This document shows, in pieces, positions 2,542 to 27,965 of a stretch of DNA of 64,000 bases; position 1 is the stretch's first letter; each line of letters opens with the position of its first letter. The stretch lies in NCBI RefSeq assembly GCF_000027125.1, contig NC_017626.1; one strand, 5' to 3'. Position numbers and translations under genes: made by a program. Source of the stretch: Escherichia coli 042 (GTDB lineage Bacteria > Pseudomonadota > Gammaproteobacteria > Enterobacterales > Enterobacteriaceae). Under the pieces are notes generated by a model. It saw only the letters and a program-made list of their open reading frames with translations. It ran no database searches and was not told where the DNA came from.

Positions 2542-3048
2542 ATGAATTTAAGCGCAATGGTATACCCTGATACTTTCATAATTAATGGCGAATCATTTAA
2601 AGGTAAAAGAAACGCAAAAGAAAACAAGGTATTAATTCCATATACAAATGAACCGGAAGTAACTATTGGTCAACACATTATCCAGTGTGTCGGTAAAAAC
2701 GAGATAAATCTAAAAATTATAGATATGAAGTTGCTTCCCAATGGAACCCTCAGACAGGGAACCAACCATCCAAATATGTTGACGCTCTATATTGAAAATA
2801 TCACGGGAAATGAACATATGACGCCACCTAAAAGTAATACATTTAACATTGGTTCAATTAGTGGTAATCAAGTGCAGATAGGTGAGCATAACCATATGCT
2901 GGTAAACATCAGCATCACTGAACTGGTTGAAAAAGTCTCTAAATCGGGGGATGTACAAGCCAAATCAGTATTAAAGCAGTTACTGGAAAACAGTACCGTT
3001 GCCAGCATTGTTGGGGCTGGCGCAAGTGCCTTAATAGGCTTACTGTAA
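2542..3048 (+). CDS. hypothetical protein, AT-rich orphan cargo gene in satellite island
   Basis: 168 aa ORF with AAAGGA RBS upstream; only sizeable plus-strand gene in a minus-strand block; strongly AT-rich codon usage; hydrophobic Gly/Ala-rich C-terminus (VASIVGAGASALIGLL); no recognisable family. Confidence 0.55.
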   Translation: MNLSAMVYPDTFIINGESFKGKRNAKENKVLIPYTNEPEVTIGQHIIQCVGKNEINLKIIDMKLLPNGTLRQGTNHPNMLTLYIENITGNEHMTPPKSNTFNIGSISGNQVQIGEHNHMLVNISITELVEKVSKSGDVQAKSVLKQLLENSTVASIVGAGASALIGLL

Positions 3049-4312: not shown

Positions 4313-6433
4313 TTAATCTTCTGCCTCAGGCTGGAACATCAGCACGTAAAAAACATGCTGCTTCCCCCCAATTTTGCCGAGCGCCTTTTTCTTGTAACGG
4401 CGATCGTTACCCGCTTCCAGCATTCCGGCAGCACTCAACGCGCGGGCAAAGTGAGACGGATTAAATCCCTGTGCTATCTCACCCTCAAATACATGCGGGA
4501 ACGTGTAAAAACGGAACTCGTCATCTTCGTTTCTGATACTCCCCTTTCTGTATCCGGCAAGCTCTTTAATCGGTAAATCACGCTCGTCGGTGTTGGGCCA
4601 CGGAAGGTATCTGCTGAATCCGAACGACGCTAAAAAAGCCTCTGCCTGTTCAACCATCTGTTTAAACTCCCTGTTACCCGTGCCGAACTCCTTCACCCAG
4701 GCATTAAAATTATGCTGAATGGCATCGCGGCACGCCTGAACATCCCAACCAGTAATATGGACGGAAAGCACCAGCGCCGACTCCAGCATGGCGAATCGTT
4801 CCCCCACACGGTGAACCTGTTCGCCGTAACTCTCCGGTATCAGGTTGCGCCACCGTTCACGGCATGCCCTTACCGTATCCTTTGCCTCCTGCTGGTGGTC
4901 TGCCAGCCATTTAACCCATTCACGCCCCGCCGCCCCGTGATTTTCTGTCCAGGCATCCTTTAACGCGTCTGCGTGTGCCTTTCCGGTGCTGTATTCGTGA
5001 AACTGCGTGGCTTTTTCCATTGGCACGTTAAGCAGGCGGACAAGCTGCCCCGCCTTGACTTTTATCCCCTCCGTTTTGAGGAATGTCTCAACGTCCATTT
5101 CTCCGGTGCTGATTGCCACCGTGCGCCAGTGTTTGATCTCCCTGTTGCCGCCGTCCTTCGCCCCCTGTAATTTCCCCGAACCGTTAAACAGCGTATAAGC
5201 CGACGTGGACACTTCCCGCGCGTTTCCGGCCTGACCTATTTCATCCAGGGGTAATAGCCCGTCATTGTGCGCCTCTGCCTCGTTGGCGATGCCTAACGCT
5301 GTACCGTACCAGGTCAGCCGTTGCGCGTCCGGCTCTCCCCATAAACTGGATGCGATGTTCTGTGTGGTGGTTTTCCCTGCCGATGACTGTTCGAAAAGAT
5401 GTACCCCGAAGCCGTCAGCACCCACCAGCCCGATTAATGGTGCGGATAACGATACCGCCACACCCAGCATCATGGACGGATTACCACCAGCCAGCCGCGC
5501 AACGGTATCGCGCCAGCCCTCCGCCGTTCCTGCCACAGAATAGCCATTAACGGCAGCCGTTTTTCCGGTAAACAGGATCGGTTTTTCAGACTCACCAATG
5601 ACTGAACCGTCCGGCATGATGTACGCACCAAAATGCCAGCCCGTTGTTGTGCTTAACTGCCATTCCTCATGGTTTCCGCTTAACTGCATCCAGTCAGCCA
5701 GGATAGCCCTGTATTTGCCGTTAGTTGTTACGTTAAGGCCGTGGTCTTTCAGCAACCGCCAGCCGTCACGGTCGCCAATGCCCCCGCACGGAACCGCCAT
5801 TGTGATGACTTCATGGTTTGCGGGTTTCTTCCAGCGCATCACGCGGTAATGCTCTTTGCCGATTGTCCCCGTTCCCAGTAGTTCAAGCGGGGAACATAAC
5901 CACGTCTCAGGCCGGATAATTTCGCCTGACTGCTTGTCAACTTTGGGCGTTACCCAGAAAACACCATCGGCGCGACTTTCAACGCGGGGCTTTAATTCAT
6001 CATCGCCCTGGCTTTCTGTGATTTTTTTCTTTAAGGGCAACACCAGACTTTCCCCGCGCTCGTATTCGTCTTTCAGCCGGGCAAGCTGCGGTGTCCAGTC
6101 CTCCAGTAGTTCACCGTTCTCGTCACAAAAACTGGCTTCCTTAACACCAGCCACTGCCAGCAGGGTTTCAATCTGTAACGCCTGTCTGTCATCCAGCTTT
6201 CCGGCACGTCTGACCATGGCGCGTAACCGTCCATCATCCACAATACGCAGGTTTTCCAGATTACCCAGGTCACGCCGCCCGAGATAAACAGGTGGTATTT
6301 TGTCGCCGCGCTTTCTGGCTTCTCCGCCCTGCATGTAATGCTCTGCGTGGCTGTATGCGTCATCCCCCGCAAAAATCACTGCATCCTCGCCTTTATCTTT
6401 CGGTAACAGTTTTACGTTCGGTGCCAGTTTCAT
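4313..6433 (-). CDS. satellite/P4-family primase-helicase-like replication protein (DUF927/Toprim-like)
   Basis: 706 aa; central Walker A-like SSAGKTT; size and position after int/alpA match replication proteins of P4-like and PICI elements. Confidence 0.6.
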   Translation of the reverse strand: MKLAPNVKLLPKDKGEDAVIFAGDDAYSHAEHYMQGGEARKRGDKIPPVYLGRRDLGNLENLRIVDDGRLRAMVRRAGKLDDRQALQIETLLAVAGVKEASFCDENGELLEDWTPQLARLKDEYERGESLVLPLKKKITESQGDDELKPRVESRADGVFWVTPKVDKQSGEIIRPETWLCSPLELLGTGTIGKEHYRVMRWKKPANHEVITMAVPCGGIGDRDGWRLLKDHGLNVTTNGKYRAILADWMQLSGNHEEWQLSTTTGWHFGAYIMPDGSVIGESEKPILFTGKTAAVNGYSVAGTAEGWRDTVARLAGGNPSMMLGVAVSLSAPLIGLVGADGFGVHLFEQSSAGKTTTQNIASSLWGEPDAQRLTWYGTALGIANEAEAHNDGLLPLDEIGQAGNAREVSTSAYTLFNGSGKLQGAKDGGNREIKHWRTVAISTGEMDVETFLKTEGIKVKAGQLVRLLNVPMEKATQFHEYSTGKAHADALKDAWTENHGAAGREWVKWLADHQQEAKDTVRACRERWRNLIPESYGEQVHRVGERFAMLESALVLSVHITGWDVQACRDAIQHNFNAWVKEFGTGNREFKQMVEQAEAFLASFGFSRYLPWPNTDERDLPIKELAGYRKGSIRNEDDEFRFYTFPHVFEGEIAQGFNPSHFARALSAAGMLEAGNDRRYKKKALGKIGGKQHVFYVLMFQPEAED

Positions 6434-6734: not shown

Positions 6735-6968
6735 TTATTTCCCGGTGTGTTGCTCTTTATATCTGTCGTGCAAGATGTCTATTTCTTGCAGTTCATTTAT
6801 TACAGGCTCAAGAAGCGTTATTAATGCTGTTGCAATATTGCTGTTGCGTTTATCTCTTTCATTATCGCCAAGCGTTTCAAGCCATAAGCGCAATATTTCA
6901 AGCATGTTTTCACTGTAAGCAAGTGCGCTGTATGCATGATCTACTGTGTCATTGTAAATATCATGCAT
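6735..6968 (-). CDS. hypothetical protein
   Basis: 77 aa ORF tightly packed in operon. Confidence 0.35.
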   Translation of the reverse strand: MHDIYNDTVDHAYSALAYSENMLEILRLWLETLGDNERDKRNSNIATALITLLEPVINELQEIDILHDRYKEQHTGK

Positions 6969-6971
6969 GGC

Positions 6972-7172
6972 TCACCCCCCCTGAATATTCGCGTTAATCA
7001 TTCCGACACGCTCTGCGAGTTCCTGTAATGATTCCCTTGTTGCGACAATTGCTTCATCTGGCAGGTGGTAATTACTCACCACGCGACCTTTATCCACATT
7101 GACTAGCAACTGCCCGGTGAATTTCTCACGAAACTGGATGCGGTTAAGGTCGGTAAGTGACAGGTTAATCAT
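6972..7172 (-). CDS. hypothetical protein
   Basis: 66 aa ORF, first gene after regulatory region. Confidence 0.35.
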   Translation of the reverse strand: MINLSLTDLNRIQFREKFTGQLLVNVDKGRVVSNYHLPDEAIVATRESLQELAERVGMINANIQGG

Positions 7173-7445
7173 GGTGTACCCCCTGACGAATACGGGCGGC
7201 GAATACCATCACGCAGCCAGCCGGGGATTGCTGGCGTGCTTCCTGTTCGCTGGTGGCCTCAATGGTAATCACGCGCGGTTGTGCCGTGCTCAGGGCGATA
7301 AAACGCCAGATATATTTATTCAGGTTGTGCGAGTCCCGCCCTTGCGGGTGTGTGGTATGATTTCTCATAGCTACCTCGATACTCTTGCTATCGTTGGTGG
7401 TTAGACGCCCTGCATGTGTTGCGAGCACTGCGGGGCGTTGCTTAA

Positions 7446-7556
7446 TTTGAGTGACAAAACTCAAACTGTGCGCACAGATTAAAATCATGTGTGCGCACAT
7501 GTCAATACTTAACATCTCATTTTTTTTGCTGTATTGTGTGCGCCCATAAAGTCCAT
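7446..7556. promoter_or_regulatory. candidate operator/switch region of the satellite island
   Basis: Perfect palindrome TGTGCGCACA at 7467-7476 and 7490-7499 (23 bp centre-to-centre), half-site TGTGCGCC at 7547; inverted repeat TTTGAGT-N6-ACTCAAA at 7446-7465; lies between oppositely oriented gene blocks. Confidence 0.5.
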
Positions 7557-7573
7557 TTAAGTGAGGTGCATCA

Positions 7574-7771
7574 ATGTCTAGCGGTAACACAAACAACAAA
7601 TCAGCAAAGAAAAATATTCGATTCCCACATGAGCTTATAGATGGGATTGATGCCAGCGTTGAACAAGAAAAATTAACTAATCCTAGTGCTAATTTTTCCG
7701 CATGGGTCTTAGATGCCTGTGGACGCAAATTAAAATATGAACAGCGCCGGAAGGCCAAAGAATCAGAATAA
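7574..7771 (+). CDS. small DNA-binding protein, possibly ribbon-helix-helix (candidate island regulator)
   Basis: 65 aa ORF immediately downstream of palindrome cluster; fold assignment is a guess. Confidence 0.4.
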   Translation: MSSGNTNNKSAKKNIRFPHELIDGIDASVEQEKLTNPSANFSAWVLDACGRKLKYEQRRKAKESE

Positions 7772-7813
7772 TCACTATCAGCGCCGTGGTGTGAGTAACT
7801 ACGGCGCATTGCT

Positions 7814-8002
7814 ATGCAGGACAACACAATGACCGATAAAGAATTGACCAAAACATTATCACCGACACGGAAAAGACGGCGCAGAAAGATAGAGCATGAA
7901 TCAGAAAGATTCGCACCTTGTTCGTTTGCTCTTGAGAAATTCCTTAAAGAGCGCAGGAAAAAGCTCTCGTTGCAAACCTTGGAACGAACCAAATCTGACT
8001 GA
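7814..8002 (+). CDS. hypothetical small basic protein
   Basis: 62 aa ORF, Arg/Lys-rich. Confidence 0.3.
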   Translation: MQDNTMTDKELTKTLSPTRKRRRRKIEHESERFAPCSFALEKFLKERRKKLSLQTLERTKSD

Positions 8003-8382
8003 TCACATTGCCCACCAGCCGCAAATGTGGCATTGTTGGTGATGCTTTTGTTTTCCCTTGTTCCCACTGGCGACCCTTTTGCGGTCGCCTTTGTTTTGCC
8101 TGTTATCCGGCAATAGTGGCGCTTCGTCACCTGTCTGATATAATTCCACAGCTTATATTCATTTTTTGCGCAGTAGGTTAATTGTTCGCAAGGGCGCTCC
8201 GGCAACGGGGCGCTTTTTGTTTTTACCCACCAGCACAATAAAAATCTTCATTTTCCATTTTTGTAAAATTTCATGCTTTCCGGACGACTGGTCATATGTC
8301 ATTTTTTAGCAGAAGATTTTGCCTTGCTGGTGGGTAGCTTCCCGGTCAACACGATGTACCGTATAATCAACACCGCGTGTGG

Positions 8383-8961
8383 TTACTGAATACGCTCACC
8401 AAAGTAAAACTCAGGCTGGTATTCACGTATCAGCCTTTTTTCTTCTTCCTCCAGCTCACGCTTTTTGCGCTTACATGCCTGTAGCTCCCTCCCCTTCTCA
8501 CTGGCACTTATCTGGTATTGCTCTTTGCGGCGGGAAAAATCCTGTAATGCGCCCCACGGGATACCATAAGCCCCCGTTTTTCTGATACCCGGTATCACAT
8601 TTCTGAATACCCAGTTACTGAAACGATGAGCAAATGTGCCAGGCGTCGTTGCTTTGCGGCTGCGGGCTATTAGTTTGTAGAAACCTGATTCGGAGATAAT
8701 GCTCATATTCTGATTTCCTCCGGGGGTGTAAGTTAAATTTACTCCCTTTTCGTCATCATCAAGCATCTGCAACGCCGTACGCGAATTGGTCAGTTCCAGC
8801 GCAGCACAAACATCCTTTGCAACAAACCACGGATCGCCGTTTAGATACACCACACGAACATCCACGCCATCAAAGCGCAGAACGACCAGATCACGAATAT
8901 CACAGAATTTTTTCACATGACGTGCGTCACCCTTGCCCGTCACGGCAATATTTTTATTCAT
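8383..8961 (-). CDS. Bro-N domain protein (phage antirepressor-like)
   Basis: 192 aa; N-terminal region with WFVAKDVCAALEL motif typical of BRO-N/antirepressor domains. Confidence 0.6.
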   Translation of the reverse strand: MNKNIAVTGKGDARHVKKFCDIRDLVVLRFDGVDVRVVYLNGDPWFVAKDVCAALELTNSRTALQMLDDDEKGVNLTYTPGGNQNMSIISESGFYKLIARSRKATTPGTFAHRFSNWVFRNVIPGIRKTGAYGIPWGALQDFSRRKEQYQISASEKGRELQACKRKKRELEEEEKRLIREYQPEFYFGERIQ

Positions 8962-9018
8962 TGCTTTTTACCTCACATACAAAAAACCCCGCATTGCGTG
9001 GTGCGGGGTTGTCGGTAA

Positions 9019-9327
9019 TTACTTATTGGCGTTTTTGTATGGGCTGTTTACTTCCTTTACTCCTGGCGGATGCATAACCCACCAGAGCACATCAGAGAGC
9101 AACCAGGAAACAGACACTTTCCCTAAATGAGCACGAGCAGGAAATGCTCCCTCCTGTTCAAGTACCCAACGTCTGCTTCTTGAAAGCCCGGTACGATTGG
9201 CACACTCATGTTCGCGTATACGGCGATCATACGGTTCGCCATGATCTTTCAGAATCTGAATGCGTTCTTCGGGTGTAGGATAAATAAATTTTTGCATAAA
9301 AATATCACCTATAAAAAAACCCGCCAA
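9019..9327 (-). CDS. AlpA-like transcriptional regulator
   Basis: 102 aa; GLSRSRRWVLEQEGAFPAR pattern similar to AlpA/phage regulatory family. Confidence 0.5.
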   Translation of the reverse strand: MAGFFIGDIFMQKFIYPTPEERIQILKDHGEPYDRRIREHECANRTGLSRSRRWVLEQEGAFPARAHLGKVSVSWLLSDVLWWVMHPPGVKEVNSPYKNANK

Positions 9328-9360
9328 AAGACGGGTTGATTATATCTCATTTAATTTAGC

Positions 9361-9594
9361 TCAGGGTTTCCATTCACCTTTTACCCATTCCAGCACCTCA
9401 GATAAGCGCCAGACTTTTGTTTGTGGGCCAATACATATTTTTCGTGGAAATTTTCCTTCCTTTTCAAGTAACGATCTGTGTCTCCTGCCAAGAGCGGTTA
9501 ACCATGCACATTCATCTTCCTTAATCATCCTGTCGATTGTTTCATCATTTTCAAGTTCTTCACGCGTAACTATTTGAATCATTACTGTCACCAC
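9361..9594 (-). CDS. alpA: AlpA-family prophage regulatory protein
   Basis: 77 aa; HTH then FPRKICIGPQTKVWRLSEVLEWV, classic AlpA signature; directly downstream of integrase. Confidence 0.65.
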   Translation of the reverse strand: MVTVMIQIVTREELENDETIDRMIKEDECAWLTALGRRHRSLLEKEGKFPRKICIGPQTKVWRLSEVLEWVKGEWKP

Positions 9595-20401: not shown

Positions 20402-20557
20402 TTACTCCTCAGGTTCGTAAGCTGTGAAGACAGCGACCTCCGTCTGGCCGGTTCGGATTCGTACCTCGCAGAGGTCTTTCCTCGTTACCAGTGCCGTCAC
20501 AATGACGGTTAAACAGATGACGATCAGGGCGATTAGCATCGCCTTTTGCTGCTTCAT
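20402..20557 (-). CDS. hokD: Hok/Gef-family type I toxin
   Basis: MKQQKAMLIALIVICLTVIVTALVTRKDLCEVRIRTGQTEVAVFTAYEPEE, Hok-family 51-aa toxin; longer overlapping frame to 20614 is Mok-like leader. Confidence 0.8.
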   Translation of the reverse strand: MKQQKAMLIALIVICLTVIVTALVTRKDLCEVRIRTGQTEVAVFTAYEPEE

Positions 20558-20848
20558 AGCCTGCTTCTCCTTGCCTTTCGGCGCGTAAGAGGCTAACCTA
20601 GATTTGCCGTTCATAGATTGAGCCTCAGATTAATGTTAAGCGTCTTGCAGGACGCGTAATGTTAACTGGGGCTTTTCTCTATCTGCCTTTTGGTGTTCAT
20701 GCCTGAGACAGATAGCCTCAAGCACCCGCTGCAATTCTACTTAACTCTCCTTTTCCCGCAAACCGTTTTTATCCCCAGCGGCAAATCGAATACACCACCA
20801 GCGCCACCGCCATCGCAATTCCTACCGTTGTTAATGCTTCAGGCCAGC

Positions 20849-24374: not shown

Positions 24375-25352
24375 TTACCCCCTGAAGCCCGGCGGAATTT
24401 CAGTGTCCGGTTCAGAAATGTGATTCACGCAACGCTGCGCAGGCGAACGCCCCAGGCGGATAACCAGTTCATCCCATTTTTCCCGGAGTTTTGCCGGACT
24501 CATGATGTTTTTTACCCAGAACGAATCCCGCTGGAGACGCCCAAACATTTCACAAATTTGTCTGTGAGTTCTGCCATCCAGCATCCGCATTGTGCGAACG
24601 TCATTGGCCCATGCTGTCCAGTTGGGTTCTTTCGGTCTAGTGATCTCGCCATCATCGCTGGCCGCCTGCTCGTAAAGACTCACGATTCGTCCCCAGATCC
24701 ACTGTGCGCACACCAAATCTTCCTGACTTCCCCACTGGCGTTTTTTCGCACTGAACACAACCGCGTCAGGGTGTCGGGTTAAAAAATCCTGTTCAGCCGT
24801 CTGCGGGTCCGGTTGCGAAGCGTCCGGACAAGAAGATCTTTTATCTGACGGATCAGGTTTTAATACTGACGGATCGGGGTCAATCATCGCCCCCCTAATC
24901 GGCAGTTTTTTATCAACGGTTGATCCATCAAAATTTGACGGGTCAACCGTTGAGGGGTCAATATTTGACGGGTCAACTGTTAACGGGTCATTTTTTGCCG
25001 GGCTAATTTTTCTTTTCGGTTTATATGACTCACGCGCCGCCGCCGCAGCTGCTTCGAGTTTTTCCACATTAAGCCGATAGATATTGCTTACATTACGCCC
25101 ACCGACCTTACGCTCTTCCTTCGTCAGCCAGCCCTCTTTCGCCAGTTCTGCAATAGCCGATTTCACTGTGGATTCACTTCTTGCACCGATCTGACGCCGG
25201 ATAGTTTCAATGGCAGGCCATGACACGCCCTCGTCATTGCTGTAGTCTGCAAGACGGGCCATAACCGCCACCCTGGATAAGATCATGCCGGTGAAGGCGC
25301 ACCCTTCCCAGACAAGACCATGAAGCTTGCTGCTCATAAAACCCCCGAACAC
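24375..25352 (-). CDS. phage replication initiation protein (O-like, N-terminal HTH)
   Basis: 325 aa; N-terminal HTH region, Pro/Asp-rich repeat linker (DPSNIDPSTVDPSNFDGSTVD); follows cro/ydaT. Confidence 0.6.
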   Translation of the reverse strand: MFGGFMSSKLHGLVWEGCAFTGMILSRVAVMARLADYSNDEGVSWPAIETIRRQIGARSESTVKSAIAELAKEGWLTKEERKVGGRNVSNIYRLNVEKLEAAAAAARESYKPKRKISPAKNDPLTVDPSNIDPSTVDPSNFDGSTVDKKLPIRGAMIDPDPSVLKPDPSDKRSSCPDASQPDPQTAEQDFLTRHPDAVVFSAKKRQWGSQEDLVCAQWIWGRIVSLYEQAASDDGEITRPKEPNWTAWANDVRTMRMLDGRTHRQICEMFGRLQRDSFWVKNIMSPAKLREKWDELVIRLGRSPAQRCVNHISEPDTEIPPGFRG

Positions 25353-27907: not shown

Positions 27908-27965
27908 TTTCTGGTGACGTTTGGCGGTATCAGTTTTACTCCGTGACTGCTCTGCCGCCCTTTTT
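27908..27965 (+). ncRNA. dicF: DicF small RNA (ftsZ-targeting sRNA of dicB operon)
   Basis: TTTCTGGTGACGTTTGGCGGTATCAGTTTTACTCCGTGACTGCTCTGCCGCCC + TTTTT matches the DicF sRNA with its terminator; sits between ydfC-like gene and dicB. Confidence 0.85.

What the first reader, a model, noticed from the sequence alone, without database searches (positions are those of the whole stretch)
7440..7560. Palindromic operator cluster at the satellite's regulatory switch
Two perfect copies of TGTGCGCACA spaced 23 bp apart plus a half-site and a separate TTTGAGT-N6-ACTCAAA inverted repeat lie in the only intergenic region that separates oppositely oriented genes in the island, directly upstream of a small putative ribbon-helix-helix gene. 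This looks like the repressor-operator switch controlling island induction.
Basis: seen in the sequence. Interest (0 to 1): 0.45.

Follow-up and report, generated by a model that had tools for sequence, protein, structure and literature searches.

The report
Repressor-operator switch of a phage satellite
Three copies of a 10-bp palindrome sit on two back-to-back promoters of an E. coli phage satellite, next to a small ribbon-helix-helix gene, and related satellites change the sites and the protein together, which points to a repressor that the literature on Gram-negative satellites has not identified.

Summary
TGTGCGCACA occurs exactly at 7467-7476 and 7490-7499, 23 bp apart. A 9/10 copy lies at 7537-7546, and TTTGAGT-N6-ACTCAAA at 7446-7465.

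The island is an EcCICFT073-like PICI embedded in a prophage terminase gene. The sites overlap two back-to-back promoters:
- **Leftward:** drives Icd-like...primase. O2 lies in the spacer and O1 at the predicted start.
- **Rightward:** drives the 65-aa gene. O3 follows the -10.

Across 80 related loci plus Yersinia, Klebsiella and Dickeya islands, about 15 alleles of this protein each carry their own motif. The motif is usually repeated three times at the same offsets (23 and 47 bp). Icd, orf62 and AlpA do not track the motif.

Best reading: an allele-specific RHH repressor that shuts the replication operon and autoregulates. Binding, promoter activity and any role in induction are untested. 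The published inducer is AlpA.

Corrections: the separate inverted repeat behaves as a leader-RNA hairpin, not an operator, and this is not the only divergent junction in the island.

No paper found describes this module.

The parts
7467..7476 (.). O1: exact palindrome TGTGCGCACA, just downstream of the -10 and at the predicted start of the leftward promoter
   Evidence: positional equivalents in other alleles
7490..7499 (.). O2: exact palindrome TGTGCGCACA, inside the 16-nt spacer of the leftward promoter and abutting its -35
7537..7546 (.). O3: TGTGCGCCCA (9/10), starting at the last base of the rightward -10; predicted weaker autoregulatory site
7478..7505 (-). Predicted leftward sigma-70 promoter: -35 TTGACA (7505..7500), 16-nt spacer, -10 TTTAAT (7483..7478); matches 11 of 12 consensus positions; start near 7471
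   Evidence: read; scored. The same -35 position, TTGA[CA][AG], is kept in nearly all alleles. The built-in scan missed it because that scan requires A at position 2 of the -10. No transcript data.
7509..7537 (+). Predicted rightward promoter: -35 TTAACA (7509-7514), 17-nt spacer, -10 TATTGT (7532-7537)
   Evidence: most other alleles have TATACT at the same place
7446..7465 (-). Inverted repeat TTTGAGT-N6-ACTCAAA; probably a 5' stem-loop of the leftward leader RNA (about +6 to +25), not an operator
   Evidence: 6 substitutions in a 27-genome variant keep pairing only in minus-strand RNA, through G.U pairs
7405..7438 (-). G+C-rich leader hairpin upstream of the Icd-like gene, kept across alleles with compensatory changes
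7574..7771 (+). 65-aa YlcI/YnfO (DUF3950) protein with a predicted ribbon-helix-helix fold; candidate repressor
7814..8002 (+). 62-aa basic protein of unknown function, probably co-transcribed; present with many operator alleles and absent from others
8069..8217 (+). Two terminator-like hairpins (8069-8089 and 8190-8217) that would end the rightward unit
7165..7368 (-). Icd-like gene, first gene of the leftward operon; the operon continues through small ORFs to the primase (6433..4313), SSB and a PerC-like gene

Best explanation
The region is the regulatory switch of an EcCICFT073-like Gram-negative PICI. Two back-to-back sigma-70 promoters fire in opposite directions. The leftward one drives the Icd-like...primase/SSB replication operon. 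The rightward one drives the 65-aa ribbon-helix-helix gene plus orf62.

The RHH protein, as a dimer or higher oligomer, binds three copies of an allele-specific 10-12 bp site. O2 fills the leftward spacer, O1 covers the leftward start, and the weaker O3 sits at the rightward start.

Occupied O1 and O2 would exclude RNA polymerase and keep the replication operon, with its Icd-like first gene (a family named for host cell-division inhibition), silent while the island is quiescent. O3 would limit the repressor's own synthesis.

Shown here: the sites, their geometry, their concerted allele-specific variation with the protein, and the RHH fold of the model.

Inferred: binding, promoter activity, the sign of regulation, and any link to induction. 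AlpA-driven read-through from upstream, a Bro-N anti-repressor or a helper protein could each lift repression; none was tested.
For: - **Site positions.** O1 to O3 lie on promoter elements.
- **Allele-specific motifs.** 80 loci anchored on a 93-100% identical Icd gene fall into about 15 alleles of the small protein, most carrying their own repeated motif; in 9 of the 15 representatives it recurs three or more times (10-mer, up to 1 mismatch). Examples: GTGTTGAACAC, GGTGTCAGCCAC, GTGTGTTTCA, GTGAATCGCAC. CFT073 has GGTGTGGCCCAC twice plus a weaker third. The offsets are usually the same: about +120, +144 and +190 from the anchor.
- **Other genera.** Yersinia islands have GGTGTGTAGA three times at spacings of 23 and 47 bp, as in the window. 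Klebsiella and Dickeya islands have GTGTTTAAA-type sites 23 bp apart. Gene order is the same: int, alpA, DUF3950, primase.
- **Conservation profile.** Identity across alleles is 93-97% in the leader, 31-41% over O1/O2, 63-66% over the promoter core, 38-46% over O3, and 84-90% at the gene's 3' end.
- **Other candidates do not track the motif.** Icd, orf62 and the AlpA type assort independently of it. One strand sequence goes with one O2 motif.
- **Shared strands, shared half-sites.** QQLNARFP goes with GTGAAT; S[AI]YKGIRFP goes with GTGTTTAAA.
- **Within the window allele.** 12 intergenic substitutions in a 27-genome variant miss all 30 operator positions.
Against: - There are no binding, transcript or reporter data of any kind.
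- Operators and the protein's N-terminus are physically linked, so their co-variation is partly co-inheritance. A Mantel test gives r=0.65 for strand versus O2, but the rest of the protein and flanking DNA give similar values.
- Sequence-level links to known RHH families are not significant: Arc E=1.2, Foldseek E>1.
- Published work makes AlpA, an activator, necessary and sufficient for induction of EcCICFT073 and does not involve this region (PMC6092414).
- A few alleles show only two clear sites or a different layout (L026, L030, L041, L049, L058).
- YlcI and YnfO of E. coli K-12 lie in prophage late regions (my own knowledge, not checked here), so family membership alone does not imply this role.
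Confidence: 0.68

Rival explanations
1. The RHH protein binds these sites but follows a different logic. It could be a Cro-like or late shut-off factor made after induction. Or it could autoregulate only, with the leftward operon transcribed mainly by AlpA-dependent read-through from the alpA promoter.
For: AlpA alone induces excision and replication of EcCICFT073 (PMC6092414). Strong intrinsic terminators follow each alpA-like gene, which is compatible with an antiterminator model. No terminator on the minus strand separates bro from the switch.
Against: The two exact sites cover the spacer and the start of a near-consensus leftward promoter that keeps its position across alleles. The weakest site is the one on the protein's own promoter.
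Confidence: 0.12
2. The RHH gene and orf62 form a toxin-antitoxin or addiction pair. The palindromes would then be the usual autoregulatory operator of an RHH antitoxin and unrelated to the replication operon.
Against: orf62 matches no Pfam, NCBIfam or PADLOC family. It is missing from many loci that keep the RHH gene and the operators. The strongest sites lie on the opposite promoter.
Confidence: 0.07
3. Another factor binds the sites: AlpA, the Icd-like protein, orf62, a host protein or a helper-phage protein.
For: PHROGs labels Icd-like families 'transcriptional repressor'. AlpA is a DNA-binding regulator (PMC6092414).
Against: Icd is 93-100% identical across loci whose operators are unrelated. 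The same AlpA type occurs with several operator alleles, and the same operator allele with several AlpA types. orf62 is conserved or absent. A host or helper factor would not require about 15 different motifs.
Confidence: 0.06
4. The palindromes act as nucleic-acid structure (a terminator or hairpin in read-through RNA, or a cruciform), serve as replication iterons, or are chance.
For: The scan lists O2 plus its flanks as a weak terminator-like hairpin on the minus strand. O1 and O2 with their flanks form a 13-nt inverted repeat.
Against: In several alleles the repeated element is asymmetric and present in direct orientation (GGTGTCAGCCAC, GTGAATCGCAC), so no hairpin is conserved. O3 lies in a different transcript. 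The published EcCICFT073 ori was cloned together with the rep gene, so it is near rep rather than here (PMC6092414).
Confidence: 0.03

Closest known systems
Phage P22 immI region: ribbon-helix-helix repressors Arc and Mnt on the divergent Pant/Pmnt promoters (from my own knowledge)
   Same: Small RHH repressors bind palindromic operators that overlap divergent promoters of an accessory immunity region. The profile alignment places R16, N14 and K12 opposite Arc positions 13, 11 and 9, which are, from my own knowledge, Arc's base-contacting residues R13, N11 and Q9.
   Different: Sequence similarity is not significant (E 1.2). There are three sites with 23/47-bp geometry rather than one operator per repressor. 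The controlled operon is Icd-like plus replication genes of a satellite, not ant. The specificity is hypervariable.
Stl/Str (Rpr) divergent regulatory module of SaPIs and other Gram-positive PICIs (PMC6092414)
   Same: It sits in the same place in the island, between the int side and the replication module. The candidate repressor gene points toward int and the replication operon points away. Many alleles exist.
   Different: Stl proteins are not detectable homologs of this protein. Derepression by a helper protein is not shown here. For Gram-negative PICIs the literature names only the activator AlpA and calls a global repressor 'unclear'.
Lambda OR tripartite operator with PR/PRM (from my own knowledge)
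   Same: Three related sites with a weak third site on the repressor's own promoter, about 23 bp centre to centre, within a mosaic immunity cassette flanked by conserved DNA.
   Different: The fold is RHH, not helix-turn-helix. The promoters are back-to-back rather than overlapping. There is no evidence for positive autoregulation or SOS cleavage.
Plasmid copy-control RHH repressors (CopG of pMV158, omega of pSM19035) and RHH antitoxins
   Different: The genetic context is different. There is no partner toxin or ParA, and the operators lie on a divergent promoter pair.
P4 CI RNA and P1 C4 RNA immunity upstream of icd/kil-type genes
   Same: An Icd-like first gene preceded by a structured leader. 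Some Gram-negative PICIs are reported to carry C4/isrK-like RNAs (PMC10111431).
   Different: No C4 or isrK match here at the gathering threshold, or at E<=10 in 7100-9700. Here the specificity determinant is a protein with DNA sites.

Membership tests
YlcI/YnfO family (NCBIfam NF041551; Pfam PF13132 DUF3950) | Match to the family model above the curated cut-off | tested here: met
   59 bits against a cut-off of 30; DUF3950 E 1.6e-6; 115 homologs across Enterobacterales, most carrying PF13132 and most of the source-named ones called YlcI/YnfO or DUF3950
Ribbon-helix-helix (Arc/MetJ/CopG) superfamily | Strand-helix-helix fold | tested here: met
Ribbon-helix-helix (Arc/MetJ/CopG) superfamily | Intertwined dimer whose two N-terminal strands form the DNA-reading ribbon | tested here: inconclusive
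   An artificial linked-dimer AF2 model forms strands at 10-18 and 95-103 with pLDDT near 90. Strand pairing was not inspected. Its best Foldseek hit, a 104-residue chain of the F-plasmid relaxosome, is not significant (E 1.9).
Ribbon-helix-helix (Arc/MetJ/CopG) superfamily | Significant sequence-profile similarity to a known RHH family | tested here: not met
   Best PDB profile hit is Arc at E 1.2. Pfam gives only HicB_lk_antitox at E 0.25.
Ribbon-helix-helix (Arc/MetJ/CopG) superfamily | Sequence-specific binding to repeated or palindromic operator DNA | not testable with these tools
   Only indirect support: concerted allele-specific repeats beside the gene
Gram-negative PICI (EcCICFT073 type) | int, alpA and primase in the canonical order; DNA homology to the prototype | tested here: met
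   Int 397-801 of the 807-aa ORF; two AlpA-like genes and a primase; megablast hit to CFT073 1380007-1381043, inside the int...capsid island
Gram-negative PICI (EcCICFT073 type) | Induction and packaging by a helper phage | not testable with these tools
   -
Helper-embedded PICI (PMC10111431) | [quoted passage not shown] | tested here: met
   The TerL N-terminus (residues 1-348) runs in frame into the integrase. TerS and HNH lie upstream on the same strand. The same arrangement is seen in strain SCU-125. The left end of the island lies outside the window.
SaPI-type Stl master repressor | Homology to Stl/Rpr proteins; derepression by a helper protein | not tested
   No dedicated comparison with Stl/Rpr sequences was run; the only family hits were YlcI/DUF3950. 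Derepression cannot be tested here. The resemblance is positional only.
P4/P1-type antisense-RNA immunity (Rfam C4, isrK) | Match to the covariance models | tested here: not met
   No match at the gathering threshold in the window, nor at E<=10 in 7100-9700
Type II toxin-antitoxin module | Recognisable toxin partner that is always linked to the antitoxin | tested here: not met
   orf62 has no Pfam, NCBIfam or PADLOC match and is absent from many loci that keep the RHH gene. Toxicity was not tested.

The most novel reading that the evidence does not exclude
YlcI/YnfO (DUF3950) ribbon-helix-helix proteins are the missing master repressors of Gram-negative PICIs, the functional counterpart of Stl. 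Their hypervariable strand-plus-operator cassettes would define immunity or specificity groups that let several satellites coexist in one cell. They would also be the point at which AlpA read-through, Bro-type anti-repressors or helper proteins trigger the satellite cycle.
Probability: 0.35. Interest if true: 0.75.

Novelty: new member of a known kind. Interest (0 to 1): 0.6.

Why it matters
PICIs move virulence and defence genes and interfere with phages. For Gram-positive PICIs the master repressor Stl explains how a helper phage switches the satellite on.

For Gram-negative PICIs the founding paper states that a global repressor is 'unclear', and only the activator AlpA is known (PMC6092414). 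A conserved, allele-diverse RHH/operator cassette at the equivalent position gives a concrete candidate that is cheap to test. It would also assign a function to DUF3950.

It could explain how the replication operon, which starts with an Icd-like gene (a family named for inhibiting host cell division), is kept silent. It also offers a set of about 15 natural, probably orthogonal, repressor/operator pairs. Whether they are orthogonal is untested.

I found no description of this module in the searched library. That library lacks most subscription-journal papers.

Tried and rejected
- **Phage collection.** A distant blastn search with 6900-8300 found nothing.
- **Rfam.** The gathering and E-value scans gave no C4/isrK or other credible RNA family in the switch.
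- **phmmer against PDB.** The single sequence gave only noise.
- **Mantel test.** Strand versus operator distance gives r 0.65, but the rest of the protein and flanking DNA correlate as well. I therefore do not count it as independent evidence.
- **Shuffle test of repeat families.** It is weak because T-runs create spurious families. It is significant for most alleles but not all.
- **Immunity-exclusion test.** I asked whether one genome avoids two satellites with the same allele.
  - The window allele occurs once in each of 68 genomes.
  - The commonest allele has 504 places in 493 genomes.
  - Another allele has 265 places in 260 genomes.
  - My rough expectation suggests some depletion for the commonest allele only. 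Clonality and one amplified genome confound it, so the test is inconclusive.
- **Fourth exact palindrome** in the prophage O-like gene: a single site, with no partner at up to 2 mismatches nearby. I treat it as possibly chance.
- **orf62 as the specific binder:** rejected.
- **The TTTGAGT repeat as an operator:** rejected in favour of an RNA hairpin.

Full report
**1. What is in the sequence**

The 206-bp gap between the Icd-like gene (7368..7165, minus strand) and a 65-aa ORF (7574-7771, plus strand) holds these elements:
- TGTGCGCACA at 7467-7476 (O1) and at 7490-7499 (O2), both exact and 23 bp apart.
- TGTGCGCCCA at 7537-7546 (O3), a 9/10 copy 47 bp further on.
- TTTGAGT-N6-ACTCAAA at 7446-7465.
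- A G+C-rich hairpin at 7405-7438.

Outside this 80-bp cluster the window has one more exact copy (24703) and one 1-mismatch copy. The chance expectation is 3.4 at up to 1 mismatch. Nothing clusters at up to 2 mismatches. The 'half-site' is a nearly complete third site.

**2. Context**

The island is a Gram-negative PICI.
- A megablast search with 6900-8300 hits 1766 of 5426 complete E. coli genomes. These include CFT073 at 1.380 Mb, inside an int-alpA...primase-SSB-PerC-capsid island.
- The window's order on the minus strand is as follows:
  - the TerL N-terminus fused in frame to the integrase (11983..9560);
  - two AlpA-like genes;
  - a Bro-N 'anti-repressor'-type gene;
  - the two plus-strand genes (65 aa and 62 aa);
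  - Icd-like, three small ORFs, primase, SSB and PerC-like;
  - a plus-strand accessory gene (2542-3048);
  - capsid and protease.
- Insertion into, and co-orientation with, a prophage terminase gene is the published 'helper-embedded PICI' configuration (PMC10111431). Strain SCU-125 shows the same arrangement.
- Because 2542-3048 is a real plus-strand gene, the switch is not the only divergent junction in the island.

**3. Promoters (predicted, not measured)**

On the minus strand the sequence reads TTGACA (7505..7500), a 16-nt spacer, then TTTAAT (7483..7478). That matches 11 of 12 consensus positions. The built-in scan missed it because it requires A at position 2 of the -10.
- O2 fills the spacer up to the -35.
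- O1 starts one base downstream of the -10 and covers the expected start near 7471.

On the plus strand the sequence reads TTAACA (7509-7514), a 17-nt spacer, then TATTGT (7532-7537). O3 begins at the last base of the -10. The two -35 hexamers are 3 bp apart, back to back.

**4. The protein**

- The 65-aa product passes the NCBIfam YlcI_YnfO_N model: 59 bits against a cut-off of 30.
- It matches Pfam DUF3950 and phrog_949, of unknown function.
- It has 115 homologs across Enterobacterales, all unnamed or unstudied. I found no paper on the family's function.
- An AF2 model (pLDDT 82.7) has helices at 19-35 and 41-64.
- A profile search of PDB puts Arc first. The hit is not significant (E 1.2). 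It aligns R16, N14 and K12 with Arc positions 13, 11 and 9.
- R16 is the only invariant residue in the family alignment.
- A glycine-linked tandem copy models with strands at residues 10-18 in both halves.
- Sequence-level membership in a known RHH family is therefore not shown. Fold-level membership is supported.

**5. Comparative evidence (the main argument)**

I anchored 80 IMG/VR loci on the Icd-like protein, which is 93-100% identical among them.
- The divergent small protein falls into about 15 alleles.
- Most alleles have their own 10-12 bp element. In 9 of the 15 representatives it recurs three or more times (10-mer, up to 1 mismatch). The usual offsets from the anchor are about +120, +144 and +190. 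Examples:
  - GTGTTGAACAC;
  - GGTGTCAGCCAC;
  - GTGTGTTTCA, with O1 inverted relative to O2 and O3;
  - TGGTATTCAC;
  - GTGAATCGCAC;
  - GTGTATTTCAC;
  - GTGCAAGTCAC;
  - TGGTACGTACCA;
  - CFT073 has GGTGTGGCCCAC twice, 23 bp apart, plus a weaker third copy.
- Many of the elements fit the form GTG-N5-CAC.
- The best leftward promoter candidate falls at the same place in nearly all alleles, with -35 TTGA[CA][AG] abutting O2.
- Identity across alleles varies along the region:

| Segment | Identity |
|---|---|
| Leader | 93-97% |
| IR, O1 and O2 | 31-41% |
| Promoter core | 63-66% |
| O3 and ribosome-binding site | 38-46% |
| 3' end of the gene | 84-90% |

That profile is the mosaic expected of an immunity cassette.

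Islands in other genera keep the gene order and the geometry with yet other motifs:
- Yersinia: GGTGTGTAGA three times, at spacings of 23 and 47 bp.
- Klebsiella: AAGGTGTTTAAAT twice, 23 bp apart.
- Dickeya: TGTTTAAACAC three times, at spacings of 23 and 24 bp.

Concerted change of all copies within a locus cannot be explained by linkage alone. It implies one allele-specific reader. The other candidates do not fit:
- Icd is constant.
- orf62 is 80-100% conserved, or absent.
- AlpA types are shuffled relative to the motif.
- The N-terminal strand of the small protein maps one-to-one to the O2 sequence.
- Alleles or genera that share a strand share a half-site. QQLNARFP goes with GTGAAT. S[AI]YKGIRFP goes with GTGTTTAAA.

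The window protein and the Dickeya protein are 73% identical. Three of their eight differences in residues 8-52 fall in residues 11-14, read.

A caveat applies. A Mantel test is significant, but equally so for the rest of the protein and for flanking DNA. It adds nothing beyond cassette co-inheritance.

**6. Within the window allele**

- The allele is present in 68 of 5426 E. coli genomes, once in each.
- A variant in 27 of these genomes has 12 substitutions in the intergenic region. None falls in the 30 operator positions; my estimate for that is p about 0.05.
- Six of the 12 lie in the TTTGAGT/ACTCAAA repeat. They turn it into TTTGAGC...ACCCAAA, which still pairs fully in the minus-strand RNA through G.U pairs but not in DNA or plus-strand RNA.
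- With the predicted start near 7471, this element is a stem-loop close to the 5' end of the leftward leader (folds it). It is not an operator.
- The next hairpin (7405-7438) is also kept, with compensatory variants.
- A decayed island with an Icd pseudogene has changes in both O2 and the -35.

**7. Mechanism and its limits**

The most economical reading is an RHH repressor that blocks the leftward replication operon at O1 and O2 and limits its own promoter at the weaker O3.

How this connects to induction is unknown. The literature shows that AlpA is an activator required and sufficient for EcCICFT073 induction. It also says a global repressor is 'unclear' (PMC6092414). Neither the helper-embedded PICI paper nor the capsid-forming PICI preprint mentions DUF3950 or a repressor at this site.

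Strong terminators follow both alpA-like genes. No minus-strand terminator lies between bro and the switch. AlpA-dependent read-through across the switch, convergent with the repressor gene, is therefore a reasonable but untested link.

**8. Verdict**

The 'repressor-operator switch' reading is well supported by comparison but not by experiment. 'Controls induction', the role of the second inverted repeat, the 62-aa protein as a binder, and 'only divergent region' are not supported.

In kind this is an ordinary RHH operator system. Its interest lies in supplying a specific, testable candidate for a missing regulator of Gram-negative PICIs and a function for DUF3950.

Noticed in passing
window 9560-12465: The PICI is embedded in the prophage terminase large-subunit gene. 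An 807-aa ORF joins the TerL N-terminus (residues 1-348) in frame to the PICI integrase (397-801). TerS and HNH lie upstream on the same strand. This is the published helper-embedded PICI configuration, and strain SCU-125 has it too (L002).
   Followed up: partly
window 8975-9594: Two AlpA-like genes lie in tandem (9594..9361 and about 9297..9019). Each is followed on the minus strand by a strong intrinsic-terminator-like hairpin with a U-run (about 9311-9340 and about 8975-9010). This is compatible with AlpA acting by antitermination or read-through.
   Followed up: no
window 24703-24712: A fourth exact TGTGCGCACA lies inside the helper prophage's O-like replication initiator gene (24375-25352, minus strand). 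It is a single site with no partner, and chance is not excluded.
   Followed up: partly
window 7405-7438 and 7369-7404: The leader of the Icd-like operon has a G+C-rich hairpin whose sequence differs between alleles while pairing is kept (for example ACGCCCC/GGGGCGT against GAGGCTG/CAGCCTC). An invariant stretch, UCUAACCACCAACGAUA...UAUCGAGGU, follows up to the start codon.
   Followed up: partly
window 7781-7807: A hairpin, GCGCCGT...ACGGCGC, lies between the RHH gene and orf62. The same sequence is present in CFT073 and SCU-125. Its function is unknown.
   Followed up: no
window 2542-3048: A plus-strand 168-aa accessory gene (full-length match to phrog_5789, unknown function, no PADLOC hit) lies between the island's capsid and PerC-like genes. 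It creates a second divergent junction.
   Followed up: partly
window 8383-8961: A Bro-N domain protein matching 'anti-repressor' PHROGs lies between the alpA genes and the switch. It is a candidate anti-repressor for the RHH protein or for the helper's repressor. CFT073 lacks it.
   Followed up: no
L016, L030, L034, L059 and related loci: Some alleles of the small protein are 101 aa long. They carry an insertion of about 42 residues (AEGSGENPL...EELQ) in the basic C-terminal tail, possibly an added oligomerisation helix.
   Followed up: no
L041, L058, L049, L026: A second group of small-protein alleles ends in GIEPKG instead of RRQRRKAKE. These loci have shorter intergenic regions and differently placed palindromes, for example ATGGTAATTACCAT twice, with one copy covering the start codon.
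   Followed up: no
L088 4826-6224; L085 7820-8204: A Dickeya PICI carries a Kiwa defence pair (KwaA/KwaB) between int and alpA. A Klebsiella PICI abuts a phage portal gene, which may be another helper-embedded insertion.
   Followed up: no
window 15753-15942, 20552-20727, 27909-27960, 33467-34966: In the prophage, Rfam finds STnc100, sok and DicF. A second integrase (33923-34966) lies beside tRNA-Asn, just beyond the prophage's own integrase and tRNA-Ser.
   Followed up: no
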